Assembly (NCBI GenBank): GCA_027066455.1
Contig: JAMONT010000083.1
Location: 4,052 to 68,051, forward strand
Direction of reading: 5' to 3'
DNA from: Candidatus Altimarinota bacterium
GTDB lineage: Bacteria; Patescibacteriota; Gracilibacteria; BD1-5; UBA6164
DNA length: 64,000 nt
Part shown: positions 17,696 through 60,313 of the stretch, piece by piece
Layout of the letters: the number at the start of each line of letters is the position of its first letter
Position numbering within the stretch: position 1 is the stretch's first letter
Position numbers and translations under genes: made by a program
The notes under the pieces: generated by a model
Seen by the model: the letters and a program-made list of their open reading frames with translations, nothing else
The model's database searches: none
Told to the model about the DNA's origin: nothing

Positions 17696-17765
17696 ATAAT
17701 AAGAATATCTTTTTTTTAAGCAAATTTTTAATGTGAAGAAATGTATGGGGTTTGTGGAAATTTTT
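17696..17765 (-). promoter_or_regulatory. Conserved promoter cassette, copy 3 (distal box diverged)
   Basis: TTCCACAaaccccatacatttcTTCACAttaaaaaTTTGCTT, 16 nt spacer, TATTAT (17696-17701). About 34 nt upstream of ATG 17662. Confidence 0.5.
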
Positions 17766-17770
17766 AAAAA

Positions 17771-19273: not shown

Positions 19274-19309
19274 AAAGATTTTAGGGTTAATGTAAAATAA
19301 GTTAACTAA

Positions 19310-19372
19310 AATATAGTCAACTTATTTTTTAAAGCAAATTTTTAATGTGAAGATTTTGTGAAGAATTTTTTT
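19310..19372 (-). promoter_or_regulatory. Conserved promoter cassette, copy 4
   Basis: TTCACAaaatcTTCACAttaaaaaTTTGCTT, 16 nt spacer, TATATT (19310-19315). About 37 nt upstream of ATG 19273. Confidence 0.6.
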
Positions 19373-19375
19373 AGA

Positions 19376-19568
19376 AAATTTATTTCTACATTCATATAAG
19401 TATAAGTAAAAAAATAACTTCAATTCCATTTTCTTTTTTCTTTTTACAATCTACAGAATTATATTTGTTTTCATTTGTAGAACATTTTCATTCACCAATT
19501 TTCACACACATTTTATCTCATTTTCAATCAGAAAGTGACATTAAAGAATAAGCACATTCTCTTTTTAG
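19376..19568 (-). pseudogene. Deleted remnant copy of the 3' end of the 14981-17662 gene
   Basis: Near-identical to about 14981-15012, 15203-15245 and 15621-15735 joined head to tail. Junctions lie at the short repeats acttc and caatctacagaat. No start codon or signal peptide found. Confidence 0.5.
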
Positions 19569-19656
19569 AGAAATTCACAACTCTTTTAAAAGTCTTTTGA
19601 AATTGTTTTTTATAAATATTTTACTACCATTTTTTATATACTTCCAAATATTTTTT

Positions 19657-20337
19657 TTAAATTTCTTTTATTTCTAAAACATAAAGTTTTTTATAAACTT
19701 CTTTTAAAATAAATTCTGATAATTTTTCAGATTTTTTTGCTGTAATAGTTATATTGATTTCTTGAAAGAAAAATGAAAAAATTTTGCTAGTTAAACTAAG
19801 TAAAAATTTATCTTTTCAATACATTTTTATCAATCTTTCAGTTAAAAGTGAAGAATATTCTATACTCAAAACATCAATAATATCTTCAACCCAAAGATTT
19901 ATTCTATTTTGAATTTCTGTATCAATAGTCAAATCATTAAATTCTTTTAATTCTTCTGAAATATAACTAAAATCTATTAATTCTTTTCATGATTTTATTC
20001 TGATTTTATCACTTATTGGTAAATAAATTAGAGATAAAAGTCAGATTAAAAAGTTGGAAGGATAACTTTCATCTAAACATGCAAAAAGGTCAGTTAATAA
20101 AAAATCATATTTTTTATTTTTTATTATTTTTATCAAAAAACTAGATAATAATAAATCACATTTTTTAGCTTTTGATTCATCTTTAATTGTTCTTTTTATT
20201 CAAGCTGCATCTTTTTTTGCTTTTTCAGAAGCCTTTTCAGATGCTTTTTCAGAAGCAGCATTTATTCAAGAATTAACTTGTCAATCTAGATTATTATCTG
20301 TACTTTCAAAGTTTGATTCTATATCTTCTAATCACAT
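19657..20337 (-). CDS. Hypothetical protein
   Basis: 227 codons, ATG 20337 to TAA 19657-19659 with TGA=Gly. N-terminal SEKASEKASEKAKK repeat. Confidence 0.5.
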
Positions 20338-20404
20338 ATTTTTTAAATTTAATTTATAAAATATTTTTTTTATTATATTTAAATAAATGTTTTTTACAAA
20401 AGTT

Positions 20405-23400
20405 TTAATCTTTTTTTTCAAATTTTATAGTTCAACCTTTTTTTACAAAATTTTCTAAAATACTTATATATTCATTATATTTTTCTTTATCTAAATCAGA
20501 ATGATAATTATTTTTAATATTTTCATAAACTGATTTTAATTCATCTGCTTCAAAATTATCTTTTTTTACTTGAGACAAAATAAGTTTTATAATTTGCATC
20601 AATTTTTTTGATCTCATTCTAGTTTTTACTCCAGTATTATCTTTGAAAACTACCCATTTATAAATACTAACATCAATATTTTTAATTTTTTTATTAACTG
20701 TTTTTTCTTTATCTTTCAAATTATCAAAACTAAATTCTGAAAGTAAATTATCTCAATATTTTTTTGTATATAAAGTAGAAATAATTATTAAAACAACTCA
20801 TAAAATTCAAAAAATAATATATCTTGAAGTTATATCTCAAACTTCCCAAACATCAAATAAAAATATTTTAGAGATAGTTAAAACTAAAAAATATAATCAA
20901 ATAGTTCTAAATTTTTGTAAATCTTTTTGAATTCAATAAATAAGTAAAACTGAAGCAATTAATCACCAATACAAAGTTAAAGAAAAATGTTCTAAATTAT
21001 TTTTAAAAATATCTAATACATAAATATTACTAACTAAAAATGCATAAATTCACAAAATAATTTTTAAAGTTAAATTAATTTTTTTATTTCAAATATTTTC
21101 TTCCTTTTCCAAAGGAAGTCCCGAAGGGGATGGATTATTGCTTTTTTTCCAAATAAAAATATTAAAAACTAAAATTCAAGTTACTAAATATTGCAATATT
21201 TTCAAATATTCTAAATTTCTAACTTCTAATGTAGAAAAAATATTATTTATATCTCAAATATGAAAAATAGAAAATCATAAAATAATTACTACAAAAACAT
21301 ATTTTAAAAAATTTGTATTCAATTTTGAATAAAAAAATCACAAAATTGTTATAAAAATAATTATCCCAAATTTACTCCATCAATTTCCATTACTAGGAAT
21401 TATTTCATATAATAAAATTCACATAATAATCATTCAAATTATATGTAAAATATAATGAATATTTTTTAAAACTATATTTTTTTCTTTTATACTCCTTCCC
21501 TTAGGCTTAAGGGAAGGTTGGGAAGGGTTAATTTCTTTTTCCTCTATAAAAAATAAATTTAAAATAAATGAAGCTAAAATTACTGAAAAACTAACTAAAA
21601 ATAAATAATTTTCTGATTTTACTTCATCAATTAAAATTCAAAATTGTGTTAATCAAATGAAAAATAAAATAGTTGCAGCAATAAATATTTTTTTAGAATT
21701 ATTTCTAGAGAAAATATAATACAAAATAGTTGCTTCAAAAAGCCAAACAGTTGTAATAATTTCTGGATATTTTGAAAATACAAAAACCATAGAAACAGAA
21801 AAAATTGAAATACTAATTCAAGCAAAAGTATAAAAAATATTTTTCAAACTTTCATCTTTTTTTACATTTTCTATTCAAATTTTTTGTATAAAAAAGTAAG
21901 CTTGTAAAAAATAAACAATTGCTAAAGCTAAAAAAGCAAATCATTCTATAACTCAAGGAAAATAAATTTCTCAATAATTATAAATTTGAAAAGAAATAAA
22001 TAATGCCGAAGCTACTACTCAAATAATTAAATTATAAAGATTTTGTTTTTCAAATAATCTTTTGTTTATAAAAGGTAAAACAAAATTAGAAATTGCAAAA
22101 ATAATTATTGCTATAATTGAAACTAAAAATAAAATTGAATTATTATTAGAAATTACTAAATATGGTGCAAAAGTTATTATTGTTCAAATTGTTCAAATAG
22201 GGAAGAGTGTAGATAAATCTTTTTTTGTTGAATAATAATAAGAAAAAAATAAAAATATAAAACTAGAAAATAAAATAGTAAAAAATTCTAAATTATTAAC
22301 ATTATTTAAATTTCAGATAATATTTAATTCTAAATTAAATAAAAATATAAAAAATCATAAAAATATAAAAAGAAAATATTTATAATAATTAGAAATATTT
22401 TTTTCTATAACTGAAAATCAAAGTAAAAATAATATTAAAAAAAGTGTTAAAGTGAAAGAAGAAAAAATTAAATCTCAAGAAAATAAAATTAAAATAATTA
22501 TTACAAAAGGAATAATAAATATAGAAAAAATTCCAGATTCCTTATCTTTTACAAAATTTTTCAAAAAATAAATACTAAAAGCAAATAATCATATCAAAGC
22601 AATATTATAAGCTAAAAAACTAAAAGTTTCAGATAAAAATCAAGAAGAATTAAATAAATTTAAAATTATAAAAAAATAAGTTCATAAAAAAATATATAAA
22701 ATATTTCAGCTAATATTATCTTTAGAAAAATTGTATGCTATTTTTATTGAAATAATACTTAAAATAATAGTAAAAATAATTTTTACACTCCAGCCAATTG
22801 AATCAGAAAAAGGTGCTGCAAAAAATAATAAATTTCAAAAAATAAAACTAATAATTAAAAGAGTTAAATTATTTTGTTTGTTAGCTAAGAATAAAGCTCA
22901 CAAACTTACAATAAAACTATATCAAACCAGAGTATAAGGTTCAGTTCCAGAAGTTCAAATTATAAAAGGATTTATGTATGCAAAAATAAATGAAAAAATT
23001 AAAAGAGTTTTTGATTTATAAATTAAAGAAGTTAAAATTCAAAGAATTGTATTTAAAATCAAAAATAAAAATGTTGTAGTTTCAGCAAAAAATATTTTAT
23101 TTCATCATATTAATAATTCATTTCATCATACTAAATGTCTTCAAGCTAAGATAACAGCATAATTTATCAAAATCCCTGTTCACATCAAAATAAGTCATTC
23201 TTGTTTATATTTTTTATGTAATTTTATTCAAGAAAAATAAATAATAAAACCAATAATTATTCAAATAACAACTCTTCAAATAGGTCAAATAATTTCCCAA
23301 ACATTTATTGCAAGTCATTTTAAAAAATATACAACCATTAAAAAAAGTAAAATTCATCATATTTTAGCTAAAATATTTGTAGAAAAAAAATTTTTTATAT

Positions 23401-23974
23401 ATGTTCAAAGTTTTTCAAAAAATATTTCAGTAGGACTTGATTCATAAAGTATTTTTTCTTTTGAAATTATTGTAGCCCCTTTCTCCCTATAAGGGAGAGA
23501 GGATTCAGGAGAGAGGGGATTTTCTTTTTTTATAGTTTCAAATCATTCATCTGGTAAATCATTAATTCCAATTTTTTCTTCTTCCAAAGATTTTGTTCAA
23601 AAACCAATTTTATCTAATTTAGTTTCAATATTTTCTTTTAATTCCAAAGATTTATATTTTATATCTTCATTTTTTAATTCATCTACTTTACTTTTTATTT
23701 TATCAATTTCTATATTTTCTTTTTTTTCATTTTTTACAAAACTATCATTATTTTTAGTTTTTTTATTTTCAATTGCATTTGCAAAAAATTCTAATCTTTC
23801 TTTTATAAAAGTACTAGAAAATAAACTTTTTTTTATAATTAAAATAAGAAAAATAGTAGTTATGAAAAAAATAAATTCTCATAAAAAATAAAAAAATCAT
23901 GAAAAAAATCCAATAATAACTATTCAAAGTATTATTGATATAACCCAAGCAAATCTATTTAGTAATTTAAACAT
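20405..23974 (-). CDS. DUF2339-like polytopic membrane protein (about 1190 codons)
   Basis: N-terminal TM helix plus coiled coil, then several dozen hydrophobic helices. The C-terminal soluble domain equals track ORF 20432-20719 plus GTIKFEKKD. Length is divisible by 3 and no TAA/TAG was met in manual translation. Confidence 0.65.
21100..21136 (+). repeat. GC-rich palindromic element, variant copy, in-frame in the DUF2339-like gene
   Basis: cttccttttccaaaggaag-tcccgaagggga-tggatt. Read on the minus strand as NNPSPSGLPLEKEE. Confidence 0.6.
21492..21529 (+). repeat. GC-rich palindromic element, diverged copy, in-frame in the DUF2339-like gene
   Basis: ctccttcccttaggcttaagggaaggttgggaagggtt. 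Read on the minus strand as NPSQPSLKPKGRS. Confidence 0.6.
23470..23519 (+). repeat. GC-rich palindromic element, consensus-like copy, in-frame in the DUF2339-like gene
   Basis: ttgtagcccctttctccctataagggagagaggattcaggagagagggga. Read on the minus strand as ENPLSPESSLPYREKGATII. Confidence 0.85.
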
Positions 23975-24019
23975 ATTTTTTTTATTAAGAATTATTTTAT
24001 AATTAAACTTTCCCTTTTT

Positions 24020-24067
24020 TGTAGCCTCTTTCTCCCCACAAGGGAGAGAGAATTCAAGAGAGAGGGA
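24020..24067 (+). repeat. GC-rich palindromic element, intergenic copy
   Basis: tgtagcctctttctccccacaagggagagagaattcaagagagaggga. Abuts the stop codon 24070-24072 of the TSP3-repeat gene. Confidence 0.8.
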
Positions 24068-24069
24068 AA

Positions 24070-25731
24070 TTATTTCAATTTTACAGCCATTTTGAATATT
24101 GCAATTCAGAAAAACACTATAACTAAAGACAAAAGTATCATAAAAATATTTTTATTTGATTCAAAAAATCTATCATCTTTTTTATCACAAACATCTCAAA
24201 TTCAATCCAAATCAATATCACTTTGAAGAGGATTATAATCATAAGGACAATTATCATTTTTTGCTAAAATTTTATCTAAATCAGAATCTTCACAAGCATC
24301 TCAAATCCCATTATTATCCGAATCTTTTTGAAGAGGATTATAAATATTTATACAATTATCTTTTATTCAACTTATTCAATCAGAGTCAGAATCTTCACAA
24401 ATATCTCAAACTCAATTTTTATTTTCATCAAGTTGATCAGAATTTTGAATATTTTTACAATTATCACAAACATCTCAAATTCCATCTTTATCAAAATCCT
24501 CTTGCTTAGGATTAGCCATTTCTTCACAATTATCTTGAGAATTAATTATTTTATCTCAATCTTTGTCATTTTCTTTTAAAAATTTTTCTTTTTCCTCAGT
24601 AACATCTCCAATTCAATTATTATTTTTATCTAATTGTCTTGGATTATAATAAATTGAATTATCACATTTATTTCAAATATTATCCAAATCATCATCTTTT
24701 TGAAGAGGGTTAGCAATATTTATACAATTGTCTAATTGATCAAAAATTCAATCAGAATCCTTATCAAATTCACATTTATCTCATACTCAATTTCTGTTTA
24801 TATCTTCTTGCTTAGGATTATAAACATTTATACAATTATCTTTTTTTCAAATTATAGAGTCTCAATCATCATCACTACACAAATCTCCAATTCAATCAGC
24901 ATTTTTATCAAATTGTTTTGGGTTAGCTATTTTTGGACAATTATCTTCTGAATCAGGAATTTTATCTAGGTCAAAATCTTCTACTTTATTTGGATTAAAA
25001 TTTGGATTTTCTTTTAATTCTAAAAAAATAGTTTTTGTATTTTTATTTAAATTATATTCTCAATAATTATTTTTTAAATTTATATAATTATTTTTACAAA
25101 TATTTTTAGCATAAGCTTTTATTTCTCAAATAGTTTTTACTAAATAAATATAATTTTTTGAAATAAATTTTAGTTCAAAAATTTTAATTTTTTCAGGAGG
25201 AGTAATATGTTTTACTGTTGTATTAAAAGAAATTTTTAAAAATTTGAAATCATAAGTGTTTAATTTTTTTTCTGGAACAAAAAAATATTTTTCTCAATCT
25301 TTAGAAATTTCAATATGAGCATTTCTATAATTTGCTTTATATTCAAAATTAAAATCAAAACTTCAAGCTTTTAATATTTTATCAAATTCTAAAAATATAG
25401 AATTTTTATTTTTTTCCTCATCATAAATTAAAAAAGTTTTATAATTTTCATCACTCAAATATTCTAAATTTCAAAATAAATTTTTTATTTTAAAATCCAA
25501 AATTCATCAATAATTTTTATATAATTTATGAGGAATAATTTTATTATCAGAAATAAAAGTATCTATTTTTTTTGTAGAATTTATTTTTAAAGTTCATTTT
25601 TCTTGTTTTAGAATTCAAAAAAATTCATAACAATTTTCTTTAAAATTTTCAGGAATTTTTTTGAATTCTTGTGCAAAACTAGAATTTATAAATAAAAAAA
25701 ATATTGAAATTAGAACTATTAATTTTTTCAT
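24070..25731 (-). CDS. Secreted thrombospondin type-3 (calcium-binding) repeat protein with C-terminal TM anchor
   Basis: 554 codons. Signal peptide MKKLIVLISIFFLFINSSFA. About eight DNCxxxxNPxQxDxDxDGIGDxCD repeats. C-terminal IFMILLSLVIVFFGIAIF helix. Confidence 0.8.
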
Positions 25732-27483: not shown

Positions 27484-30276
27484 TTAAGTAGTACTATCAG
27501 TGCTAGCTCAAGAATTTTCAGTTTCATTTACAGGAGTAGTAGTATTATTTCAAGCTTCAGTTTTTAAAAAATCTGTTCAAGTTCAATCTACTGCCTTTAT
27601 ATTTCAATTGTTATTTTTATTTATAATAGGTTTTCAACTATCATCTTTTTTTACATATTTCTTCATTCTTTTTATTATTTCTTGTTGTTCTGTAGTTTGT
27701 TTTATTTCAAAATCATTGTCTAATATTTTTTTAAATTTACTTTCTTCCATTTCTCATAATAATCATTGTTTTTCCATATATTGAACCATTTGTTTTATAT
27801 CACTTTCTTTTTCTATTTTATTGTCTTTTACAACAATATTATATGCTCAAATTCTAACATTAAATTTACCATCTTCAGCTTCTAATGGTACAGCATTAAA
27901 CCCTCAACCACCACTTCAAGGATTAGAAGAAGAAGTTTTTTCTACCCAATTAGTATTTCAAGTTCAAGTTGCAGTTTCATTATATACTAATTTTCATTTT
28001 TCATCTGTTTTAAGATGTTTTCATAATGCTTTCATTTCTTTACCTATTTCTTTTTCATCTATTTTTAAAGAAAGTAATACATCTTTAATTTCTCATTCTT
28101 TTGTAATTCATTCTTGTTCTAAGTATTTTGCTATAAGTGGTATATCATTATTTTGAAGATTATTATCATTGTTTTCATATCTATTATTAAGCTTAATATC
28201 ATTTCATTTATTACCTCTCAAAGAAGTTGGTCATTTTTCAGTGTTTTTAATATATTTAGAAGTTGAAATAGAGTCAGAATCAGAATTATCAATTGTAGAT
28301 TTTATTAATTCAGACATTGATGAATTTTCTCATTCTCCTCCATCAGCATTAAACATAGCTATTTTAACTTTAGCATTAGTAGTAGGTGCAGTTGCAACAT
28401 CTCTCCAAGTAGTATCAAGTTGACTTTCAGTTGTAACATTTTGTAATTTTTTAATTTGTTCTTCTGAAAATCACATTTTATTTCATAACATTTCCATAGT
28501 TTTATCAAAAGCATTTGACTTTATAAATTCATTAGCATTCTTGAATTTTCATCATCTTACAACCTCTTTTATTAATAAATTAATTTGATTTGATATTACT
28601 TTGTTATCACCACCTTTAACAGCACTTTCTATAGCTTTTAATCTTTCATCTGTTTTACCACTTAATAAAACTCTCATTGCTCAATCACTTTGTATTCACA
28701 TAGCTTTAGAAGCATAATCTCAAATAGCTTGTCAAAGAGCAGCTCATTTATATGCTGCATTTCATTCTATTGTTGCTTTTGTTTTTTCAGCAGCATTTTG
28801 TAGTGAAGTTAATGTGTGTCATTTTGTAAAAGGTAAAGGTATATATTTCGGTGCATTCATCATCAGACTTCAGGCAGATTTTCAGAGTTCACTTATTGGA
28901 GCAATAATACTTCCTGTAATTTTGGAAGCTGATAGCGCGGTTATAACTCAAAGCCATAAAATTATTAATCAAAATAAATCTAAAATTATTATTCATACAG
29001 CTCAAAGTCATGTTGAAAATAACTGATTTACAGAATCAGCTGCTTGTATATTTGCACTATTAGAAAAAGCTAAATCAAAAGTATGTTCATATGTACCTAA
29101 AATTTCAAGAGTAGAAGTCTTATCTGTATTTTTCTTTATATTTATAATATTTGTAGTTGGAGATGTTGCTAATCAGTTTCATACTATACTTAAAAAAAGT
29201 AATCAAAATGCTAAAGCTCAGGAAACATATACAGGAACCATTGCTAAAGCTACTAATTCTTTTATAGAAAATTTTTCATTAAAACCACTCCAACCTTTTC
29301 AGAAAAATATAAATATTCAAAAAACAGGAGAAAAAATCATATATATCCATAAAGCAACTCACCTTACAAATAAAGCAAATCAGAGAGCTATTACAAGTAT
29401 AAAATATATTATTATAAATACAATATCAAAACCAATTTTTATTATTAAGTCAAAAAGAGTACTTACTTTATCACTTATTGATTCTGAATATAATACCATT
29501 GTTTCATCTAAAGCAAAAACTCAATAAGTATAAATATTTAATATTCAATATGCTGAACGAGGTCAGTATAATAAAGTACTTATAAGCACTTTATCTTCTT
29601 CACTTCTACATTTTGTAGTACTAACTTGGTCACCAACTACAGAAATTGTAGTACCATCAGCTTCAACAGAGCTTTCTATTTCGTCTCATTTTTTCTTTTC
29701 ACTTGTTGTTGTCACAGGATGTGTACAGATTTTTTTTGCTAAAAATTCTTTTACGGCTGGTTGATTTTGAAAGGTATCAAAAGGGAGAGTTAAAATAGAA
29801 GCTGCAAGCATAGAAGAAATACTTATTAATCATGCTATTAAAACCCAAGATAAGGGAACCATTAATACTCAAAGTAAAAGTTTTGGAAGTGCTTGTTTTA
29901 GTTCAAAGGTTCAGTCTCATTTTCAAATAATATTCATAAATGCTATTGCTATAAGCAAAAATATAAATATAAGATATACTACATTTGAAACCAAAATCCA
30001 TAATTCATGAATATAATTAGTCATTCAAAAAACTTCTCAACTAGTCCAAGCAGGATGTAAGAATAATCACACAAATTGTGTTACAATTCAAATTAATGTT
30101 GATAATAAAATAAAAATACCATTTATTTTTTCTATTAAATCAGCTTTTTCATCTGTTGCATTTTTAACATTATTAGCAAAACTTAAGTCTGAAAAATAGA
30201 AAATTATAAAAATTCCTAAAAATATTAGGATTGTTTTTCTATTATTTGTAATATAGTTTAATATTTTTTTAAACAT
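27484..30276 (-). CDS. Large polytopic membrane protein with long hydrophilic C-terminal half (possibly TrbL/VirB6-like)
   Basis: 931 codons, in frame with track ORF 30088-30276. About 8 hydrophobic helices in the first 470 aa. The family assignment is tentative and based on architecture only. Confidence 0.55.
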
Positions 30277-32637: not shown

Positions 32638-32787
32638 TTATGTATAGATTAAGAACACAAGCTCGTAAAAAAATACAAAGAGCATTAAGAACTATTGAAA
32701 AAAAAGTTAAAAAGAAACAAAGATAATTTTTCTTTTTTAACTGTATTAAAAAATTATTTAAATTTTATTTTTATTATTATATATATT

Positions 32788-33987
32788 ATGGCTTACGATA
32801 GAAGCAAACCACATATGAATATTGGTACTATTGGTCATGTTGATCATGGTAAAACTACTACTACTGCTGCAATTTCAGCTGTATTAAGTGCTAAATATAA
32901 TCCTGATGCAGTAATCAAAGATTTTGCTGCAATTGATAATGCTCCTGAAGAAAGAGCTAGAGGTATTACTATTAATACTTCTCATATTGAATATGAAACT
33001 GCTAATAGACACTATGCTCATGTTGATTGTCCAGGACATGCTGATTATGTTAAAAACATGATTACAGGTGCTGCACAAATGGATGCTGCAATATTAATTG
33101 TTGCTGCAACTGATGGTCCTATGGCACAAACTAGAGAACATATTTTATTATCTAGACAAGTATGAGTTCCTTATATTGTTGTTTATATGAATAAATGTGA
33201 TATGGTTGATGATGAAGAAATGATTGAATTAGTTGAAATGGAAATTAGAGATTTATTAACTAAATATGAATTTCCTGGTGATGATACTCCAGTTATTAAA
33301 GGTTCAGGTTTAGTTGCTCTTGAAAATCCTACTGATATGGATAAAGAATATGGAGCAAAAACTATTATAGAATTATTTGAAGCTATAGAAGAATTTGTTC
33401 CTGTTCCTGATAGACCTACTGATAAAGATTTTCTAATGCCTATTGAAGATGTATTTTCAATTAAAGGTAGAGGTACTGTTGTTACAGGTAAAATTGAAAC
33501 TTGAATTATTAAAGTTGGTGAAGAAGTTGAAATTGTTGGTATAAAAGAAACTACAAAAACTACTGTTACTGGAGTTGAAATGTTCCACAAATTATTAGAT
33601 GAAGGACAAGCTTGAGATAATGCTGGTTTACTAATAAGAGGTGTAGAAAGAGAAGATGTTGAAAGAGGTCAAGTTCTTGCTAAACCTGGAACAATCAAAC
33701 CACATACTGATTTTGAAGCTACTGTATATATACTTTCTAAAGATGAAGGTGGTAGACATACTCCATTTTTCAAAGGTTATAAACCTCAATTTTACTTCAG
33801 AACTACTGATGTAACTGGTGATATTGAATTACCAGAAGGAGTTGAAATGGTTATGCCTGGTGATAATATTGATTTCAAAGTTAAATTACAACAAGCTATT
33901 GCAATGACTGATGGTCTAAAATTTGCAATAAGAGAAGGTGGTAGAACTGTTGGTTCATGAGTTGTTTCTAAAATTATTACTGTATAA
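32788..33987 (+). CDS. tuf: Elongation factor Tu
   Basis: [24 protein letters not shown]...DCPGHADY...NKCDM. In-frame TGA at 33163-33165 (LLSRQV-G-VPYIVV), at 33502-33504 (GKIET-G-IIKVGEE), and at two further conserved Gly positions (GQA-G-DNAG, VGS-G-VVSK). Confidence 0.97.
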
Positions 33988-46224: not shown

Positions 46225-47523
46225 TTATTTATAAACAGGAAATTTTTCACATAAAATTAAAACTTCTTTTTTTAATTTTTTTAATTTTTCTAAAAATTCT
46301 TCATTTTCAAAAATTTTCATATCAGATTTATCTTCTATTTTAGTATTAGTTGTTTTATATTCTTTTAATGTATTTAAAGTTTCAAAAAATATTTTTGCAA
46401 TTTCTTTCATTTCAATTTCATTCATTCCTCTAGTTGTAGCTGCTGGAGTTCATATTCTTATTCAACTTGGATCAAGAGGTTTTCTAGGATCATAAGGTAT
46501 CATATTTTTATTTGTTGAAAGACCAACTAATTCTAAAGCTCTTTCTGCTTGCTTTCAAGTTATTCAAAAACTAGAAAAAACATCTACCAAAATTATATGA
46601 TTGTCAGTTCAATTTCAAATAATTTCAAATCAATAATTTATTAATTCAAAAGCTAAAATTTGTGCATTTTTTATTACTTGTTTAGCATAATTTTCAAATT
46701 CTGGTTTTAATGCTTCACCAAATGCAACAGCTTTTGCAGCAATTAAATGTTCATGTGGTCAGCCTTGAACTCAAGGAAAAACAGCTCTTGCTATTTGTTT
46801 TTCATATTTTCACTTTGACATAATCATAGCTCATCTTGGTCATCTGAGAGTTTTGTGAGTTGTTGTAGTTATTACATCACAATAGGGAACTGGATTTTCT
46901 AAAGCTTTTCCAGCAATAAGTCCAGCAATATGTGCTATATCAGCCATTAAAATTGCTCAAACTTTATCAGCTATTCTGCGAAATCTTTTCCAATCAAGAT
47001 TTTTTGAATAAGCTGAAAATCCTGCAATAATCATTTTTGGTTTTTCTCTAAGAGCTATTTCTTCAAGTTCATTCATATCTATTTTTCCTGTTTTTTTATC
47101 AATATTATATGGAATTATTTCATATAATAATCCTGAAAAGTTAAGAGGATGTCAATGTGATAAATGTCATCATTGGTCAAGACTCATTCCTAAAACTTTG
47201 TCTCAAGGTTTTAAAAAAGCCAAATAAACAGCTAAATTTGCTGGACTTCCTGAAAGTGGTTGAACATTTACATATTCTGCTCCAAATAATTCTTTTGCTC
47301 TTGAAATAGCCAAATTTTCTATTTTATCAATTATTTCATTTCAAGCATAATATCTTTTTCAAGGATAACCTTCACTATATTTATTTGTAAGTACACTTCC
47401 TGAAGCTTCCATAACGTCAGCTGAAGCATAATTTTCTGAAGCAATTAATTCTATTTCTTGTTCTTGTCTTTTTGTTTCTGCTCATATTAATTCAGCTAAA
47501 ATGGGATCATTGTTTTTTATCAT
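46225..47523 (-). CDS. glyA: Serine hydroxymethyltransferase
   Basis: ...[34 protein letters not shown]...[13 protein letters not shown]... 433 codons. The C-terminus equals track ORF 46225-46425. Confidence 0.93.
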
Positions 47524-52508: not shown

Positions 52509-52644
52509 TTTTTATGATTATAAATTATTTTTTTATCATTATATTGTTTTTAAGAAAAATTTCAATTTTTTGTTTATAGTTTTTTTGCTTTAAAAATAAT
52601 AATATGATATTATTATAATAATTTAAATAATAATTTAATTTTTT

Positions 52645-55600
52645 ATGACTAAAAAGAAATTTAAACAAGCTTTCACATTAATAGAATTAATTGTAGTTAT
52701 TGTAATTTTAGCTATTTTATGAACTATTGCTTATATTTATATGAGTAATTATAGTACTGACTCAAGAGATACAGTTAGAATTACTGATTTAAAAAACATT
52801 CAAAAAACACTAGATATTTATTTTGCTAAAGAATCACAATATCCAGAACCAAGTGATACAATTAATATCACTTATAGTTGAGCAACTGTATGGCTTCAAT
52901 GAGTTTTTTGAAATAAAACAAGAAAAGATTTATGAATTATATCAACAATTCCTTTAGATCCTATAACTAGAAATCCTTATTCATACTCAATAACAAATCA
53001 AAAAATGGAGTATCAGCTGTGAGCTGCATTAGAGTGAGATAATCCAGCAAAATCAGATTTAGAATGAATGCTAATAAATAAAGTTTATGCTTCACAAGAA
53101 ACATTAAATACATATATTATTTGAAATTATAATTGAAAAATAGTAAAATTCTCAACTTGATGATTAGACTATATTATCACAACACCAACAATTATAGCCT
53201 CTGATTTATCTAATACTGATATTTTAGATGTTATTGAAAATAAAAAATTATCTTTTAATACTTTTTCAAATCTACCAAATTCATATTCTTGAGTAATATT
53301 AGATAATAATAATTTTGATTTTAGTTGATGAGATAATATTGTTTTTAAATGAAGCTTTGAAAAATTATATTCAAGCAAAAATGAAAAAATGAAATTATAT
53401 GAAAAAATTGCAAAAAGATACAATTTTTCTTTTTTAGAATGAAAATGAAAATATAAAATTTTTTCTGATACTTATTCTGATTCTTTAAATCCTACTACAC
53501 AATATATTGACCATACTTGTCTAATAATATGAGATTTGATAAAAGATAATAATAATAGAAAATGTTTAGAAAACAAAGATGATATATTAAAATGAGAAGC
53601 TTATACTTGAGTGTTACTTCCAAACTGAGAAACAAATTATGTATGACAATGGCCTCTTTGAGATGTTTATAATTATTGACAATGAATTCAAACTGCTAAT
53701 CATGATAGATCTAATTTATGATTAAAATGATGATTAAATAAAACAATTTGAGTAAAATGGAAATTATTTACAAAAAACAAAAATGCAACAAATTATTTTT
53801 GATGAGAAGATATTAATTGAGACTCTAAAGAAAATATGCTTTATTGATTTTGATGAAAACTTATTTTATGAGATACTACTAATTGAAAAATAGTATGGCA
53901 AACTAAAGTTTTATGAATAAAAAAAGTTTTATGAATAGAAGATATAATGTGAGATTGAAGTAAATCTATAATAGTAGCTTTATGAGAAGATTGGTGGATA
54001 TGAGTTATTAATTGAAAAACTTGAGAATTAGATTGGATATCAAATAAAGTTTCTTGAACTGAAAAAAAAGTAAAAGTATGATGGCCATGACTTAATTATA
54101 AAACATTTGATATAAACTGAGATTGAATTAAAGAATATCATTTTAAACAATGGTACAAAAAATATCATTCAATGAAATTTTTTAAATCTTGAAATAAAGT
54201 AATATGAGAAACATTATGGTCTTCAGAATGATTTTGAAATTATAATGAAAATGTAACTGATTGATATCAACCTTATGTTTGGTCAATGTGAAAAATAAAT
54301 AATAAGTTAGTAATTTGAGCTAAATGAGCAAATCAATTTAGTTTTTATTCAAATGATGTAGATTCTAGCTTACCTCTACCAAATAAATTTAAAATGCCAG
54401 CATTTGCTAAATTAAATAATTGATGAAATACTTATAATTGACGGAGTAGAAGTATATGATATTTTTATGATATAAATTGAGATTGAAATGATGAATATAT
54501 AGCAAGAATTGATAAAGAATTAAATAATAATAAAAAATCAAGAATAATTGTCTCTTGACTTGATCCTTTAGATTCTAAAATGAAACAATTTATGTCTCTT
54601 TCTTCTTTTAATAATTCAGCTATAAACTATCATAAACCAATAGTTTTAAAAAATAATTCTAGCCCTGAAAATTCATACATTTTGACCTACTGAGAAGACC
54701 CTGTAACAAAAGCTAATAAATGGATGTTATTAAAGTACAATTGACAAAATAGTTTTAGTTATAAAAAAGATTCAGCTGAAAATGAATCATTTAATTATAA
54801 AATAGAATATGATAAATTTGACTCTAATTATAGTCCTGTTTGAATTTATAATAATTGAACTAAAGATTATATAGTTTTAAGAAAATGAACTTATTATTAC
54901 TTTTATACTTTTAATTGAGTTGATACATTCAAAGCCCCATTAACTGAAAGTTCTTTAAAAATTTCTTGAAGTTTTTTTGGAAACACTCTTTTTGATAATG
55001 GTTATGATGAAAATAGAGAAAAAGGGAAAGATTCTTGAATATTTTTAGCTTCTTATGATACAAATTGAAATTGAAAAAAAGAATTTGTAGTTTCAGAATG
55101 ATGATGATTTAAACTATATGAAGTAGAAGACTCTTGAACAACTTTAATAAAAACTTTTAATTGATATGGTAGTGTCCCTAGTAGACAAAAATATTGATTA
55201 ACTAAGGATAATAAGGATATGTATATTATTTCTTATAATTCCTCAAAAAATACTGTAAATTATTATAGAACAGATTTTGATAATTGAATTACTAATTTTA
55301 TTAAAAAAACAAATGATACACTTTATTCTTGAGGTGAAACTAATGATATGATTATTTCAAAATTATGACAAGGAAATAATAAATATAATAGATTAATGAT
55401 AAAATCTACTTGAATGTTTGATGCCAGAAATGCAACTCCTATTAATTCCCCAACAAAAATATCAAATGAATTTTTTTATTCATATGATATGAATAGAGAT
55501 GGAGAAAATGAAATTTTTCAAAACTGAAAAGCTTATACTTATAATTGACCTTGAAATTATACATTAAAATATAACTGAGAATGATGGCAATGAGATATAG

Positions 55601-56856
55601 ATTGAGACTGAATTTTAGATAATAGTTGGTCTTATTGTTCTGCTAGTGCAAATTTTTCTAGAAATTTATTTTACACAATAAGAAGTTGAAAAGATAATAG
55701 TGAAATAATTCCTAAATTAGATTGGGGAAATTGAAATTGATGGTGTGCATGATGAGATAAATATTCAGCTGTTTCAGAAGACTTTGATTCTGATTGAAAA
55801 GATGATTTTGTAATTTGAACTCAAGCAAGAGCACATAGAATATTATCTTTAAGTTGAAGTATAGCAAGTTGATTTTCAATAAATGAATGAAATCAAGCTA
55901 TTAGAAATGCTAGTAAACTTTTATCAGCCTTTGATTTTGATTGAGATTGAAAAAAAGAAATTTTAAGAGGTTATGATGATGATTTAAAAATATGGAAAAT
56001 TGATGAAAATGATAAAACAAAGCTAAATTTATTATTTGAAATAACTACAAAACAAATTAAAAAAACTCATCGGCAAGATATATGAATTCCTTCTTTATAT
56101 AAAGATGAAGACACTTGAAAAGTATATATTGCTATTAGATGAATAGATTGAGAAATTGCTTTGTATACTTGGGAAAAAGATGAATGATTAAAATATTTAT
56201 GGAAAAATTATTATATATATGCAAAAAAATATAGTTCTGATATATCTGCATTAAACAATAATTTAATTCCTATAGCAACAGCTGATGTTTTATTATGAGA
56301 TTTTATGAATGAATGAAAACCACAAGTATTGGTATGATCATGAGATTGATATGTTTATTTAATATGAATCAATTGAGATATTAAAAGATGATTTTATATA
56401 TGAAGTTCTATAAAAAGAATGATAATATGAGATACAAATGAAGATTTGTTATTAGATATTTTAGTTTGAGCTGAAGATTGATATGTTTATCAAATTTCTA
56501 GTTCTAGACTTGATCCTCCTGCATTAGTTAAAGATTGATTAAGTTGAGATTATAACAAACAAACAGAAGAACAAAAAAGTGCAGTTAATTTTAAAAAGGT
56601 AAAAGAAGCAAATTGATATTATGTGCAATTGTATAATTATACTAAAAAACAAGCTGTATTTGATTTTGTAAATATTTGAAATAAAACAAGTACTTGTGTT
56701 GTATCAAATAATTATTCTTGAAATATTTGAAATTGTATAAAAGTTAACAAAAATTTTAGTTTAGAAAAAAATGTTATATATGTTTGGAGAGTTCAAGCAT
56801 ATAACAATGAAATGTCTTCTCCTGAAGCTATTTCTGATTGATTTTATATTGAATAA
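52645..56856 (+). CDS. Giant pilin-headed protein: prepilin-type N-terminal methylation/cleavage motif fused to FG-GAP-like repeats
   Basis: 1404 codons. MTKKKFKQAFTLIELIVVIVILAIL... Repeated DINGDG, DTNGNGKKE, DIDGDGILD, DFDSDGKDD and DFDGDGKKE calcium-loop motifs. Well over 100 TGA-Gly codons, so the track has no + strand ORF anywhere in this 4.2 kb. Confidence 0.75.
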
Positions 56857-56865: not shown

Positions 56866-57921
56866 ATGTTTGAATATTACTTAGACTTATTAAAAAACAA
56901 TTTTTTTATAATAGTAATTCCTATATTTATAATTATAGGATGACTTTGATATTATTATTTTACAAATTATAAAAATATTGATGTAAAAGAAATGTGAAAT
57001 AATAATATAAATATAAAAGTTGATAAAACTAAAAATGAAATAAAACTTGTTAATAAATTAAAAGATAGTACAAAAAAAGATATTAATAAATATAATTATC
57101 AAGTTCAAATTTTTTTAAATAAATTTGAATTATCTTGTAATTGAGAAAAAAATATTTGTGAAAAAATTCTAAAAAATAAAGAAAAATTAAATAATTTTAT
57201 TTTATGAAATTATTCTTGAGAACTAAAAACTTTGGATAATTTTAATTTAAATATAGATAATTTTTTTGATAAAACTTTTAATGAAGACAATTTTAAATTT
57301 AATATTATAGATTTTTTATATACTTTTCAAAATAATTTTATAAAAGAAACTAATATAAAAAATACTTGATTTGAAAAATATTTTGAATTTAAATCTTGAG
57401 AAAATATTATTTTAAATAATATGGAAATTCAATGTGCATCAGAAATAAAGATGTCTATAATACCATGAACTTTTGAAGAAGATAAAATAATTTCTGAAAA
57501 AGTTGAAGAAAATTGTAAAAATTTATGATGAGAAGTTTTTTTAACATTAGAAAATAATGAAAAAAATCAAATAAAAAATAATGAAATTAATTTAGAATTA
57601 AAAATACAAAAATTAGAAGTAAAATATATTTTTTTTGAAAAAAAGGATTGAAAATTTTTAGAAATTGATTCTAAAAAAACATTAATAGATTATGAAAAAA
57701 ATTATATTCTTAAGAAAGAAAAAGAAAAAGAATCTAATATTAAACAAGAAAAAAGTCAAGAAAAAACAGAAAAAAAGGGGGAAAAAATAATAGAATATGT
57801 TAATAAAGATAATAATTTAAATAAACAAAAAAATTATAGAAAAAAAATTAATGATATTTTAAAAGAAAAATATAGAAAAAAAATAAATAATATTTTACTT
57901 GAAAAATATAGAAAAAAATAA
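56866..57921 (+). CDS. Hypothetical N-terminally anchored protein, Lys/Glu-rich C-terminus
   Basis: 352 codons. TM IIVIPIFIIIGGLGYYYF. Starts 10 nt after the giant pilin-like gene. Confidence 0.45.
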
Positions 57922-57985: not shown

Positions 57986-59362
57986 ATGGAAATAAATACT
58001 ATTTTTATGCAACTTTGAATTGCATTATTTGCTTGAGCATTTATAGGATTACAAAGAGAAATGCATTTTAATAAAAGCGAAGAAAAAATAAAATTTTTAT
58101 GAATAAGAACAAATATTTTTTTAGCAATATTATGAGTAGTATCAACTTTTTTTAGTACAATGCCATATATGCCAATTATATTTTTCTTTTCAATTTTAGT
58201 ACTTTTGGCTATTTCTCATATTTCTGGTAGTTTTAGATTAAATAGAATTTGAATAACAGCTGAACTATGAGCTTTTTTAGTTTTTTGGATTTGAGTTTTA
58301 ATAGGTTTTTGACAAGAAATTATAGCAATTATTTTGACTATTATTATTGCTTTAGTGAATACTTTTAGATATCAAATAGATAATTTTGCTGAAATTCTAA
58401 ATCATAAAGAATGGTTAGCTTGACTGCAACTTTTAGTTTTTTCTTGAGCAATTTTACCAATTTTACCAAATATTCCTATTAGTGAATTACTTGTTTGAAC
58501 TAATTTTGAATTAAGTAAAAATTCTTTAGTTTTTGCTATTTTTTCAGATATAAATTTATTCAAAGTTTGGTTATTTGTTTTATTTATTTCTGGTATTTGA
58601 TTTGTTTGATATTTTCTTTCAAAATTTATTTGAGCAAAATGATGAATTCCTATTTCAGCTTTTTTATGATGATTATCTAGTTCAACAGCTGTAACTATTT
58701 CACTTGCTTCTCAAGAAAAACAAGCTCAATCTAGAAAACATTCAGATTTAATTTCTTTAGTTTTTGCATGATGAATTTTGATTTGAATTTCAACAATGAT
58801 GCTTAGAGTAATATTATGAATTTTTGTAATTTGATGATTAAGTCTTGGTTATAAAATTTTTTATATTCCTTTATCTATGTCTATTTTTGCTGCAATTTTG
58901 GCTATTTATTGTATGAAAAAATATCACAAAGAATCAAAAAAAGCTTGAAATGAAAAAGCTGATATAAAATTATCAAGTCCATTTGAAATTTGGCCTGCTA
59001 TACAATTTTGAGGTTTTTATGTTATGATTTCAGTTTTGATGAATACAGCTCTTTATTATCAAGATTTTTTAAAACAACAAGTTAGTTGGTTAAGTGAAAA
59101 TATGCCTATTTATATAATTTCATTTATTTCTGGTTTTGCTGATGTTGATGCAATTTATATAAAAGTTTCTTGACTAGTTTCTGATGAAAAAATGTTAGCT
59201 TCTGTTTGAGTAATTACAATTACAATTGCTGTTATTATGAATACTTTGGTTAAAATTCTTTATGTAAAAATAAGTGCTTCAGATTATTTAGCAAAATTGA
59301 TGTTTTATTTAGTTTCTTCAGTTTGTGTAGTTTGAGCTTTTGTTACTTATTTTATTGTTTAA
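57986..59362 (+). CDS. MgtC/SapB-family plus DUF4010 membrane protein
   Basis: 459 codons. ...GAFIGLQREMH...FLGIRTNIFLAILG... then a multi-TM DUF4010-like half. Confidence 0.65.
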
Positions 59363-59428: not shown

Positions 59429-60313
59429 ATGAACAAATCACAAAATATAATTATTTACAAAAAAGAAAACTGACAAATTTCAGTTGATATTTTGATTGAA
59501 AATGAAACTTTTTGGATGACTAATTTACAAATTAGCCAGCTTTTTTGAAAATCAAAATGAACAATTAGTGAACATATTAAGAATATTTATGATGAATGAG
59601 AATTCGAAAAAAAAGCAACTGTTTGGTTTTTCCAAACAGTTCAAAAAGAATGAAATAGAGAAGTTAATAGGGAGTTAGAATATTATAATCTTGATATAAT
59701 TTTTGCAGTTTGATATAGAGTAAAATCAAAACAATGAGTGCAATTCAGAAAATGGGCAACTACTAAATTAAAAGAATATTTGATAAATTGATTTACAATT
59801 AATGAAGAAAAAATAAAATCTTGAAAAACAACTCAGTATTTTGACAAACTTCAAAATAAATTAAGAGAAATTAGATTATCAGAAAAAATATTTTATCAAA
59901 AAATTAAAGATATTTATACTACAAGTATTGATTATAATCCAAAAGATGATAAAACAATTAAATTTTTTACAACAGTCCAAAATAAATTATTATGGGCAAT
60001 TAGCAGGAAAACAGCAGCAGAATTAGTTTATAATAGAATTGATATTTCAAAACCTCTACTTTGAATGCAATCTTTTAGTAAAGAATGAGAAAATAAAATA
60101 ACTAAAAAAGATGTAATTATTGCAAAAAATTATTTAGATGAAAAGGAAATAAAAACACTCTGACTTTTAGTTGAACAATTTTTAGCATTTGCAGAATCTA
60201 TGGCAGAATCAAAAATAATTATGAAAATGTCAGATTGGATAGAAAGATTAGATTTAATTTTAAAAATGAATTGAAAAGAAATTTTAGAAAGTTATTGAAA
60301 AATTTCTCAATAA
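59429..60313 (+). CDS. RhuM-family protein (3' end apparently truncated by a frameshift)
   Basis: ...FWMTNLQISQLFGKSKGTISEHIKNIYDEGE...EYYNLDIIFAVGYRVKSKQGVQFRKWATTKLKEYLINGF...IAKNYLDEKEI... Ends GKISQ-TAA. Confidence 0.8.

What the first reader, a model, noticed from the sequence alone, without database searches (positions are those of the whole stretch)
52645..56856. 1404-codon pilin-headed FG-GAP protein hidden by recoding: candidate pilus-tip adhesin
The ORF begins with a type IV prepilin signal (KKKFKQA-FTLIELIVVIVILAIL, with Ala rather than the usual Gly at -1). It continues for about 1350 residues with recurrent D-x-[DN]-G-D-G-x-x-[DE] calcium loops typical of FG-GAP/VCBS beta-propeller repeats. 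It ends in a beta-rich domain (VWRVQAYNNEMSSPEAIS). Typical pilins are about 150 aa, so a pilin anchor fused to an integrin-like propeller suggests an adhesin displayed on the pilus. The gene has so many TGA codons that the standard-code track reports no + strand ORF of at least 60 aa in 4.2 kb. A small membrane-anchored ORF follows 10 nt downstream.
Basis: partly seen in the sequence, partly recalled or inferred. Interest (0 to 1): 0.7.

Follow-up and report, generated by a model that had tools for sequence, protein, structure and literature searches.

The report
Giant pilin carrying beta-propeller adhesin cargo
This is a real 1403-residue gene of a tiny bacterium that reads TGA as glycine. 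It fuses an ordinary type IV pilin head to a large calcium-loop beta-propeller, most likely to stick the pilus to other cells. This is a design already known as a "modular pilin".

Summary
Window 52645-56856 (+) is one ORF of 1403 codons plus TAA, with 130 in-frame TGA and no internal TAA/TAG (chance about 1e-52). TGA means Gly (code 25): 16 of 20 TGA codons in the window's SHMT gene align with Gly in a solved SHMT, and none with Trp.

Read with table 25, the protein has:
- a prepilin signal (Pfam N_methyl, above cut-off) and a pilin module of about 270 aa;
- about 14 FG-GAP-like blades with 6 strict and 2 loose Ca-loop motifs (FG-GAP_3, above cut-off);
- an FN3-like C-terminal domain.

Full-length orthologs (43-73% identity) occur in Gracilibacteria. 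One lies inside a type IV pilus gene cluster. The downstream membrane-anchored ORF is conserved and travels with the propeller. It also follows a paralog that has a plain signal peptide instead of a pilin head, and that paralog sits among prepilin genes, as PilY1 does.

Best reading: a modular minor pilin that displays an adhesin. "Hidden by recoding" is just the genome-wide code, and Ala at -1 is canonical. Pilin plus FG-GAP architectures are already catalogued (Raynaud 2021), so this is a new member of a known kind. Tip location and ligand remain inferred. The structure models were poor.

The parts
52645..56856 (+). Complete gene: 1403 codons plus TAA, read with code 25 (TGA = Gly). A modular type IV pilin.
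   Evidence: ORF statistics; genetic code; Pfam; colinear orthologs; identical in two other assemblies.
52645..52671 (+). Leader peptide M1-A9 (MTKKKFKQA). Predicted prepilin-peptidase cleavage after Ala9.
   Evidence: Motif read from the sequence. N_methyl covers residues 7-30. Leaders end in Gly or Ala (PMC10191384). Ala occupies -1 in 10 of 17 related heads. Cleavage itself is inferred.
52672..52743 (+). Hydrophobic N-terminal half of the pilin helix, F10-M33. In the mature protein this gives Phe1 and Glu5.
   Evidence: Sequence. PDB sequence matches to Geobacter PilA-N (1.8e-7), GspG (6.8e-4), MshA and S. sanguinis PilE1. In the AF2 model of ortholog P0005, residues 12-63 form one long helix.
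52645..53454 (+). Pilin head module, about residues 1-270. It is shared with hundreds of shorter Gracilibacteria/Peribacteria pilins and with other giant pilins that carry different cargo.
   Evidence: shared N-terminal part, then divergence. (974 proteins at E<=1e-15, mostly 200-500 aa). (39% identity over 127 residues to a stand-alone 248-aa pilin in the pilus locus L003). The fold is not confirmed.
53455..53736 (+). Connecting region, residues 271-364, with two Cys (C292, C307). No family assignment.
   Evidence: Conserved among orthologs, but no profile hit.
53737..56517 (+). Beta-propeller cargo, residues 365-1291. It holds about 12-14 FG-GAP/PQQ-like blades, probably two seven-bladed propellers (inferred).
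   Evidence: FG-GAP_3 above cut-off. My own blade HMM finds 12 units here and 13-15 in distant relatives. PDB sequence hits to PQQ-like propeller designs and BBS2. The AF2 model of the ortholog is all-beta with about 70 strands but low confidence. Foldseek returns multi-propeller proteins at E 1e-12 but TM only 0.1-0.2.
54109..54135 (+). Ca-loop motif DINGDGIKE (residues 489-497), one of six strict loops. The others are at 54469-54495, 55486-55512, 55594-55620, 55780-55806 and 55933-55959. Looser ones are at 53809-53835 and 55057-55083.
   Evidence: 6 observed, 0.03 expected. Conserved in all five code-25 orthologs. Calcium binding itself is inferred from the FG-GAP/integrin precedent.
56518..56853 (+). 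C-terminal FN3-like beta-sandwich, residues 1292-1403, with an inserted loop carrying two conserved Cys (C1351, C1364).
   Evidence: Profile of this domain against PDB: titin FN3 4.7e-6, contactin 4.7e-5, FN3con 0.014.
56866..57921 (+). Conserved partner gene (351 aa): N-terminal membrane anchor, four conserved Cys, no prepilin motif, no known family. Probably co-transcribed (9-nt gap, no terminator-like site).
   Evidence: An ORF occupies the same position in L003, L004, L005 and L007, aligned with 4 invariant Cys. A profile built from these matches the ORFs after P0170 and after the non-pilin paralog P0167 at E 1.5e-42 and 1.5e-41. No Pfam hit. No terminator-like site.

Best explanation
The gene encodes a modular minor type IV pilin of a bacterium that uses genetic code 25. 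The closest named relatives are Candidatus Gracilibacteria.

Proposed mechanism:
1. A prepilin peptidase removes the nine-residue leader after Ala9. This leaves Phe1 and Glu5 on a hydrophobic helix, which lets the protein be polymerised into a type IV pilus like any other pilin.
2. The remaining 1130 or so residues stay outside the filament. They comprise a connector, about 14 FG-GAP-like blades with conserved calcium loops, and an FN3-like domain.
3. This cargo acts as a calcium-dependent binding module for the surface of another cell, a host or prey.
4. Its bulk would place the protein at or near the pilus tip.
5. The co-transcribed membrane-anchored partner works with the propeller, for example in folding, disulfide formation, delivery or as a co-receptor.

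Shown: the ORF, the genetic code, the pilin signal, the FG-GAP and FN3 domains, conservation, the conserved partner, and the link to pilus genes in relatives.

Inferred: cleavage, incorporation into pili, tip position, calcium binding, adhesion and the ligand.
For: - ORF and code.
- Pilin head: N_methyl is above cut-off in the window protein, and TIGR02532 is above cut-off in ortholog P0005.
- PDB pilin matches for the head.
- The head is homologous, beyond the helix, to a stand-alone pilin in a pilus locus. It belongs to a family of at least 974 mostly short pilins.
- The same head carries other cargo types (LamG/fibrinogen-like, DUF285, LRR_5, discoidin) in proteins P0011-P0017. This is the modular-pilin pattern of Raynaud 2021 (PMC8179133).
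- Cargo: FG-GAP_3 above cut-off and conserved Ca loops.
- Ortholog P0005 is flanked by T2SSE, T2SSF and pilin genes.
- An unfused paralog of the cargo plus the partner sits inside a cluster with two prepilin genes above the N_methyl cut-off and a third just below it. The cargo is therefore linked to pili even without its own pilin head.
- Colinear conservation at 43-73% identity over the full length.
Against: - No pilus machinery, other pilin or PilD is encoded among the ORFs I scanned: 11-32 kb (Pfam), 42-64 kb (precomputed Pfam) and the whole window for prepilin motifs. ORFs at 1-11 kb were only partly scanned and those at 32-42 kb not at all.
- Four of the six ortholog loci examined also lack pilus genes nearby.
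- Glu5 is invariant, whereas the capping subunit of known tip complexes lacks it. The protein may therefore not be the very tip.
- Both AF2 models are low confidence (pLDDT 47 and 51), and Foldseek gave no significant pilin match.
- No experimental data exist for any member.
- FG-GAP propellers also occur in non-adhesive proteins.
Confidence: 0.7

Rival explanations
1. The class III signal is used only as a membrane anchor or for short pseudopilus-like surface display, and the protein is never built into long pili. The propeller then sits on the cell envelope as a surface-layer adhesin or receptor. This would resemble archaeal surface proteins that carry prepilin-type signals (Sulfolobus 'bindosome'; from my own knowledge).
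For: In this window and in four of the six ortholog loci, the gene pair stands apart from pilus genes. The same cargo is also deployed with a plain signal peptide (P0019, P0020, P0022, P0167) and, in distant relatives, with a MYXO-CTERM anchor. This shows the cargo works as an envelope protein without a pilin head. The head scores weakly as GspG-like.
Against: The head is the ordinary pilin type of this clade, with Phe1 and Glu5 kept invariant. One ortholog lies inside a pilus locus. The unfused paralog lies among prepilin genes. Modular pilins studied so far are in pili (PMC8179133).
Confidence: 0.17
2. It is pilus-borne, but the propeller is mainly not an adhesin. It could be a calcium-sensing regulator of pilus extension and retraction, as proposed for the PilY1 propeller (my own knowledge). 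Alternatively it could be a glycan-degrading or glycan-binding module used on prey envelopes.
For: Many conserved Ca loops. The unfused paralog has a PilY1-like gene arrangement. Some FG-GAP/VCBS propellers are enzymes (my own knowledge).
Against: No catalytic or PilY1 family hit at E<=0.1. The other cargoes carried by the same head (LamG, LRR, discoidin, fibrinogen-like) are typical binding modules.
Confidence: 0.1
3. It is not a functional gene. It could be a pseudogene, an assembly artefact, or a protein that should be read with TGA = Trp (code 4) or TGA = stop.
For: Public collections store this very protein with Trp at every TGA (P0001, 10.7% Trp). Standard-code ORF callers see nothing here.
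Against: The chance of such a stop-free frame is about 1e-52. The sequence is identical in three assemblies. Orthologs are colinear over the full length. TGA aligns with Gly at 16 of 20 positions in SHMT and never with Trp. Only TGA = Gly restores the D-x-N-G-D-G loops and the FG-GAP Pfam hit.
Confidence: 0.01

Closest known systems
Modular type IV pilins, as defined by Raynaud et al. 2021 (S. sanguinis PilB with vWA, PilC with lectin; PMC8179133, PMC9934059)
   Same: An N-terminal pilin module with a class III signal is joined to a bulky binding module that is not specific to pilus biology. The cargo is expected to be exposed on the filament, and metal-dependent binding is likely. Their InterPro census already lists IPR012902-IPR013517 (pilin plus FG-GAP) in 5 proteins and IPR012902-IPR033764-IPR013517 in 3. 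Many examples come from CPR phyla.
   Different: The cargo here is far larger, about 1130 residues with about 14 blades plus FN3, against a single vWA or lectin domain. The head is a 270-residue clade-specific module. There is a conserved non-pilin partner gene. No member has been studied experimentally, and the organism uses code 25.
PilY1 / PilC tip adhesins of Pseudomonas and Neisseria (Pfam PF05567, IPR008707)
   Same: A large beta-propeller protein with calcium sites that is associated with type IV pili. The unfused paralog P0167 is encoded among prepilin genes, as pilY1 is within fimU-pilVWXY1Y2E (the operon comparison is from my own knowledge).
   Different: No sequence match to the PilY1 family. 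The window protein is itself a pilin, whereas PilY1 is not. The blades are of FG-GAP type.
Large tip-located minor pilins: CofB and TcpB (type IVb pili), GspK (type II secretion), ComZ (Thermus)
   Same: A pilin head carrying extra structural domains, presented at the filament tip (discussed in PMC8179133).
   Different: Those extra domains are beta-repeat/beta-sandwich, alpha-domain or beta-solenoid folds of a few hundred residues. GspK-type caps lack Glu5, whereas this protein keeps it.
Integrin alpha-type FG-GAP / VCBS beta-propellers
   Same: Repeats with D-x-[DN]-x-D-G-x-x-[DE] calcium loops. Pfam FG-GAP_3 is above cut-off.
   Different: Only one repeat pair reaches the Pfam cut-off. There are about twice as many blades as in one integrin propeller, the last blades look PQQ-like, and the overall fold is not resolved.
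Uncharacterised surface proteins of about 1100 aa in Myxococcota with a MYXO-CTERM sorting signal (for example P0069 and P0090; P0130 is from a Polyangiales MAG)
   Same: Distant homologs of the cargo. P0090 matches in several stretches from the first blades to the last blades (4 matched stretches, the best over the first blades). P0069 and most others match mainly the C-terminal third plus the FN3-like domain.
   Different: They are anchored by a signal peptide plus MYXO-CTERM instead of a pilin head. Identity is only 16-19%. They come from high-GC, standard-code organisms, and their function is unknown.

Membership tests
Type IV pilin / prepilin (IPR012902, Pfam PF07963 N_methyl, TIGR02532) | A short, charged leader ending in Gly or Ala directly before the cleavage site | tested here: met
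   MTKKKFKQA|F. The rule is stated in PMC10191384. Relatives have Ala or Gly at this position.
Type IV pilin / prepilin (IPR012902, Pfam PF07963 N_methyl, TIGR02532) | A hydrophobic stretch of about 20-25 residues after the cleavage site, usually with Glu at mature position 5 | tested here: met
   FTLIELIVVIVILAILGTIAYIYM. Glu5 is invariant in 17 aligned heads.
Type IV pilin / prepilin (IPR012902, Pfam PF07963 N_methyl, TIGR02532) | Profile score above the curated cut-off | tested here: met
   N_methyl 30.3 bits against 21.2. Ortholog P0005 scores 17.3 against 16.3 on TIGR02532.
Type IV pilin / prepilin (IPR012902, Pfam PF07963 N_methyl, TIGR02532) | Pilin fold: a long N-terminal helix packed on an antiparallel beta-sheet | tested here: inconclusive
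   The AF2 model of the ortholog head has a helix at 12-63 followed by strands, but mean pLDDT is 47. The best Foldseek hit is the CofA pilus at E 0.49.
Type IV pilin / prepilin (IPR012902, Pfam PF07963 N_methyl, TIGR02532) | Processing by a prepilin peptidase and polymerisation by a pilus machinery present in the same genome | not testable with these tools
   No such gene was found among the window ORFs scanned. The rest of the genome is not available. The ortholog locus L003 has T2SSE, T2SSF and pilins.
Modular pilins (Raynaud et al. 2021) | An N-terminal pilin module plus at least one extra domain that is not specific to pilus biology | tested here: met
   N_methyl plus FG-GAP_3 plus an FN3-like domain. 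The same architecture class is listed in their Dataset S1.
FG-GAP / VCBS beta-propeller (Pfam PF13517, PF01839) | Repeat profile above the curated cut-off | tested here: met
   FG-GAP_3 37.4 bits against 26.9 at residues 1046-1107. PF01839 scores only 15.4 against 22.1.
FG-GAP / VCBS beta-propeller (Pfam PF13517, PF01839) | Recurrent calcium-binding loops D-x-[DN]-x-D-G-x-x-[DE] | tested here: met
   Six strict and two loose loops, against 0.03 expected, all conserved in orthologs. Calcium binding itself was not tested.
FG-GAP / VCBS beta-propeller (Pfam PF13517, PF01839) | A closed seven-bladed propeller fold | tested here: inconclusive
   12-15 blade-like units by my own HMM. The AF2 model is all-beta but low confidence. 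Foldseek hits to multi-propeller proteins have TM 0.1-0.2.
PilY1 / PilC adhesins (Pfam PF05567, IPR008707) | The PilY1-type C-terminal propeller domain | tested here: not met
   No PF05567 hit at E<=0.1 in the Pfam scan. The relation is one of analogy only.
Type II secretion major pseudopilin GspG (TIGR01710, Pfam PF08334) | Profile score above the curated cut-off | tested here: not met
   T2SSG 14.2 bits against 21. TIGR01710 scores 34.5 against 88.85 for ortholog P0005.

The most novel reading that the evidence does not exclude
The propeller-plus-partner gene pair may be the code-25 CPR counterpart of PilY1. On this reading it is a calcium-loop propeller cassette that determines which host or prey cell the pilus grabs. 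Evolution would have re-anchored it repeatedly: fused to a pilin head (this gene), left unfused inside a minor-pilin operon (P0167 in L008), or attached by MYXO-CTERM in Myxococcota. If so, it would be a concrete, testable candidate for the host-recognition determinant of uncultivated, possibly predatory or episymbiotic Gracilibacteria.
Probability: 0.3. Interest if true: 0.6.

Novelty: new member of a known kind. Interest (0 to 1): 0.35.

Why it matters
Gracilibacteria and their relatives are thought to live attached to other cells, and their pili are the suspected attachment organs. Papers on these groups propose this role for pili and giant surface proteins (PMC11452946, PMC8080830). The molecules that recognise the host are unknown.

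This gene family offers a defined candidate: a pilin that carries its own large calcium-loop propeller, always paired with one partner protein. The same head carries many alternative cargoes, which suggests a swappable adhesin repertoire.

There is also a practical lesson. Public protein collections store most copies of this family with TGA read as Trp. That hides the FG-GAP domain and weakens homology and structure prediction.

Conceptually, however, it fits the established modular-pilin idea and does not change it.

Tried and rejected
- **Table-25 translation refused.** I used the correctly translated ortholog P0005 (53% identical, colinear) as a proxy. All coordinates from those jobs are P0005 coordinates.
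- **Structure prediction.** The only available alignment rows are mostly mistranslated (Trp for Gly). Both models are poor (pLDDT 47 and 51). Foldseek gave nothing usable for the head and only generic multi-propeller hits for the cargo. I draw no topology from them.
- **Pilus genes in the window.** I found no second prepilin motif. Pfam scans of 10 ORFs at 11-32 kb and the precomputed families at 42-64 kb show no pilus machinery. ORFs at 1-11 kb and 32-44 kb were only partly scanned or not scanned at all.
- **tRNA-Gly(UCA).** None of the 7 tRNAs in the window has this anticodon. The code rests on the SHMT alignment instead.
- **Promoter and terminator scan.** There are 67 promoter-like sites against 64.8 in shuffles, and no terminators. 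This is uninformative in 20% GC DNA. A TTAAAA-18-TATAAT site at 52590-52619 is noted only.
- **PilY1 membership.** Rejected, because there is no profile hit.
- **GspG equivalog.** Rejected, because scores are below cut-off.
- **Literature.** A search for Gracilibacteria plus FG-GAP found no paper.
- **Code 4 reading.** Rejected.
Full report

Yes. Window 52645-56856 on the + strand is a single frame of 1403 sense codons ending in TAA. It contains 130 TGA codons, no internal TAA or TAG, 20 TGG and only 9 GGN codons. The nearest upstream in-frame stop is at 52636. The other five frames of the same stretch hold 56 to 137 TAA/TAG each. With this base composition, the chance of 1403 codons without TAA/TAG is about 1e-52. 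The same 4212 bases are found without a single difference in two other public assemblies (L001 from ENA, L002 from Logan).

**2. Which genetic code?**

The window is about 20% G+C, and its genes are full of in-frame TGA. I masked the 20 TGA codons of the serine hydroxymethyltransferase gene (46225-47523, - strand) and aligned the protein to solved structures. Sixteen of the 20 positions face Gly in 3pgy and none faces Trp. They include the classic GYPGKRYY, GGHLTHG, THKTLRGPRG and FPGxQGGP motifs.

TGA is therefore Gly (table 25), as described for Gracilibacteria and Absconditabacteria (PMC11452946). So 'hidden by recoding' is the ordinary code of the organism, not a property of this gene. This gene does use TGA for 130 of its 139 Gly codons, while the EF-Tu gene uses it for 4 of 36. 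No tRNA-Gly(UCA) lies in the window.

**3. What the protein is made of (table-25 translation)**

*Leader and helix.* Residues 1-9 (MTKKKFKQA) are a charged leader. Residues 10-33 (FTLIELIVVIVILAILGTIAYIYM) are the hydrophobic start of a pilin helix, with Phe1 and Glu5 in the mature numbering. Pfam N_methyl scores 30.3 bits against a cut-off of 21.2. The best PDB sequence matches are pilins and pseudopilins: Geobacter PilA-N at 1.8e-7, GspG at 6.8e-4, then MshA and S. sanguinis PilE1.

*Ala at -1 is normal.* The field's review says the leader 'invariably ends with ... Gly or Ala' (PMC10191384). Among 17 aligned relatives, 10 have Ala and 7 have Gly, counting TGA as Gly.

*The head module.* The head extends to about residue 270. 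A profile of it finds 974 proteins at E<=1e-15. The best 120 are 171 to 507 residues long, and those that carry a source name are mostly from Gracilibacteria, with one from Peribacteria. A stand-alone 248-residue pilin in a pilus locus matches the head at 39% identity over 127 residues, well beyond the helix. The head is therefore an ordinary pilin type of this clade.

There are six strict D-x-[DN]-x-D-[GS]-x-x-[DE] loops and two looser ones, against 0.03 expected. All are conserved in the five orthologs I could translate correctly. Pfam FG-GAP_3 scores 37.4 bits against a cut-off of 26.9. A blade profile built from the family detects 12 units here and 13 to 15 in distant relatives. I infer about 14 blades, probably two seven-bladed propellers. 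The last blades resemble PQQ-like propeller designs, and BBS2 also matches.

*The C-terminal domain.* Residues 1292-1403 are an FN3-like domain (profile against PDB: titin 4.7e-6, contactin 4.7e-5).

Most alignment rows were mistranslated. The head model has a 52-residue helix followed by strands, but pLDDT is 47. The cargo model is all-beta with about 70 strands, but pLDDT is 51. Foldseek gave no significant pilin hit and only generic multi-propeller hits with TM 0.1-0.2.

**4. Relatives and context**

*Orthologs.* About a dozen full-length or nearly full-length relatives (1386-1436 residues, 43-73% identity, colinear) exist. Those that carry a source name are Candidatus Gracilibacteria. The 91% 'relative' P0001 is this very gene stored with Trp at every TGA.

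*Other cargoes on the same head.* Other giant proteins share only the head. They continue with LamG/fibrinogen-like, DUF285, LRR_5 or discoidin modules.

*Window neighbours.* The neighbours are unrelated to pili: a rhodanese-domain membrane protein, DUF4010, RhuM and a glycosyltransferase. The scanned ORFs at 11-32 kb are surface and membrane proteins without pilus machinery.

*Link to pili in relatives.* Ortholog P0005 lies in a pilus locus with two T2SSE ATPases, a T2SSF platform protein, two near-identical 250-residue pilins and a further pilin.

*The partner gene.* The small downstream ORF is conserved. An ORF sits 9-30 nt after the gene in all six pilin-headed loci examined. Five copies align with four invariant Cys, and a profile built from them matches the sixth at E 1.5e-42.

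*The partner travels with the cargo.* The same profile also matches, at 1.5e-41, the ORF that lies 57 nt downstream of P0167. P0167 is a paralog in which the same cargo has a plain signal peptide instead of a pilin head. That paralog and its partner are embedded in one-strand gene order among prepilin genes:
- a 416-residue prepilin-like protein (N_methyl 18.1 bits, just below the cut-off);
- a 633-residue NHL-repeat modular pilin (23.9 bits);
- a 252-residue pilin (38.0 bits).

This is the arrangement known for PilY1 among minor pilin genes (comparison from my own knowledge).

*More distant relatives.* A full HMMER scan of 1.84 billion representatives finds proteins of about 1100 residues that match the cargo. 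P0090 matches from the first blades to the last. P0069 and most others match mainly the last third and the FN3-like domain. P0069 and P0090 end in a MYXO-CTERM sorting signal (22.4 and 29.1 bits against a cut-off of 20). P0130 comes from a Polyangiales MAG. The cargo is an old surface-protein unit that has been given three different anchors.

**5. How it most likely works**

The best-supported reading is a modular minor pilin. The leader is cut after Ala9, the helix enters the pilus core, and the propellers stay outside as a calcium-dependent binding module for another cell's surface. The partner acts with the cargo.

Shown: the parts list, conservation, and the genomic links to pili in relatives. 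Inferred: processing, assembly, tip position, calcium binding and adhesion.

A cargo of about 1130 residues can hardly be packed along the filament, which favours the tip. However, the invariant Glu5 argues that it is not the capping subunit, because caps of known tip complexes lack Glu5.

Three rivals remain:
- The prepilin signal serves only as an envelope anchor. This fits the isolated position of the gene pair in most loci.
- The propeller regulates pilus dynamics or acts on glycans, and is not primarily an adhesin.
- The gene is an artefact. This is excluded.

**6. Comparison with what is known**

Raynaud et al. (PMC8179133) defined modular pilins, counted more than 1200 of them in 264 architectures, many from CPR phyla, and argued for tip display. 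Their Dataset S1 already lists pilin plus FG-GAP (IPR012902-IPR013517) in 5 proteins, and a three-part variant in 3. NCBI annotates ortholog P0005 as a 'prepilin-type N-terminal cleavage/methylation domain-containing protein'.

The protein meets the sequence criteria of a type IV pilin and of a modular pilin. It meets the FG-GAP profile and motif criteria. It does not match the PilY1 family or reach the GspG cut-offs.

Three things go beyond the catalogue: the size of the cargo, the obligatory partner gene, and the existence of fused and unfused forms of the same cargo next to pilin genes. These are worthwhile details for people who study CPR cell-cell attachment. Papers on these groups propose that pili and giant surface proteins mediate host attachment (PMC11452946, PMC8080830).

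**7. Verdict**

- The novelty class is a new member of a known kind.
- Interest is moderate to low (0.35). The finding is a clean, well-conserved example with a testable PilY1-like hypothesis. It has no experimental support, no resolved structure and no conceptual surprise.

Noticed in passing
window 888-3855 (- strand): ORFs 888-2777 and 2767-3855: An overlapping gene pair matches the anti-phage SIR2-HerA defence system. PADLOC scores HerA at 6.3e-171 over the full length and SIR2 at 8.2e-62.
   Followed up: partly
Public protein collection: P0001 (this gene), P0002-P0004, P0006-P0010, P0012-P0018, P0167-P0171: Most stored copies of this family are translated with TGA as Trp (7-14% Trp, about 1-5% Gly). 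For P0001 the precomputed Pfam record shows only a weak N_methyl hit and no FG-GAP. Only P0005 and P0011 are translated correctly. This mistranslation weakens homology searches and structure prediction for code-25 organisms.
   Followed up: partly
window 32695-33987 (+) compared with 52645-56856 (+) and other genes: The share of Gly codons written as TGA varies widely between genes. It is 11% in the EF-Tu gene, 44-80% in most genes, 90% in ORF 14981-17662 and 94% in the pilin gene. This may reflect expression level or local AT pressure.
   Followed up: no
window 11480-25731 (- strand): A run of predicted surface proteins lies here: Beta_propel PF09826 (382 bits), an SLH-domain protein, a Cys-rich 893-aa protein with DUF4214, a 1189-aa DUF2339 membrane protein, and a 553-aa protein with thrombospondin type 3 calcium-binding repeats (157.8 bits). 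The organism invests heavily in calcium-binding envelope proteins.
   Followed up: no
L008 3003-14981 (+), Logan SRR23684533 contig: A one-strand cluster reads: prepilin-like 416 aa, signal-peptide protein 780 aa, unfused cargo paralog P0167, partner 278 aa, NHL-repeat modular pilin 633 aa (Ala at -1), 264-aa protein with a hydrophobic N-terminus but no Glu5 motif, and pilin 252 aa. It looks like a minor-pilin/tip-complex operon.
   Followed up: partly
P0016 (1553 aa) and P0017 (1662 aa), relatives sharing the head: In these two proteins the second half of the head module (GNYNG...PSI[IM]A.DLTNPD...NKL.YNGF) appears near residue 1150. It follows about 1000 residues of repeat domains, instead of directly following the first half. 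The cargo seems inserted into the pilin module and not appended to it. This was seen by eye in the sequences.
   Followed up: no
window 27484-30276 (- strand): A 930-aa protein has several transmembrane segments, a long hydrophilic C-terminal half and no Pfam hit. Its function is unknown.
   Followed up: no
window 59429-60313 (+) and 57986-59362 (+): A RhuM-family gene and a DUF4010 membrane protein lie directly downstream of the pilin-partner pair. RhuM genes are often found on mobile or island DNA (my own knowledge).
   Followed up: no
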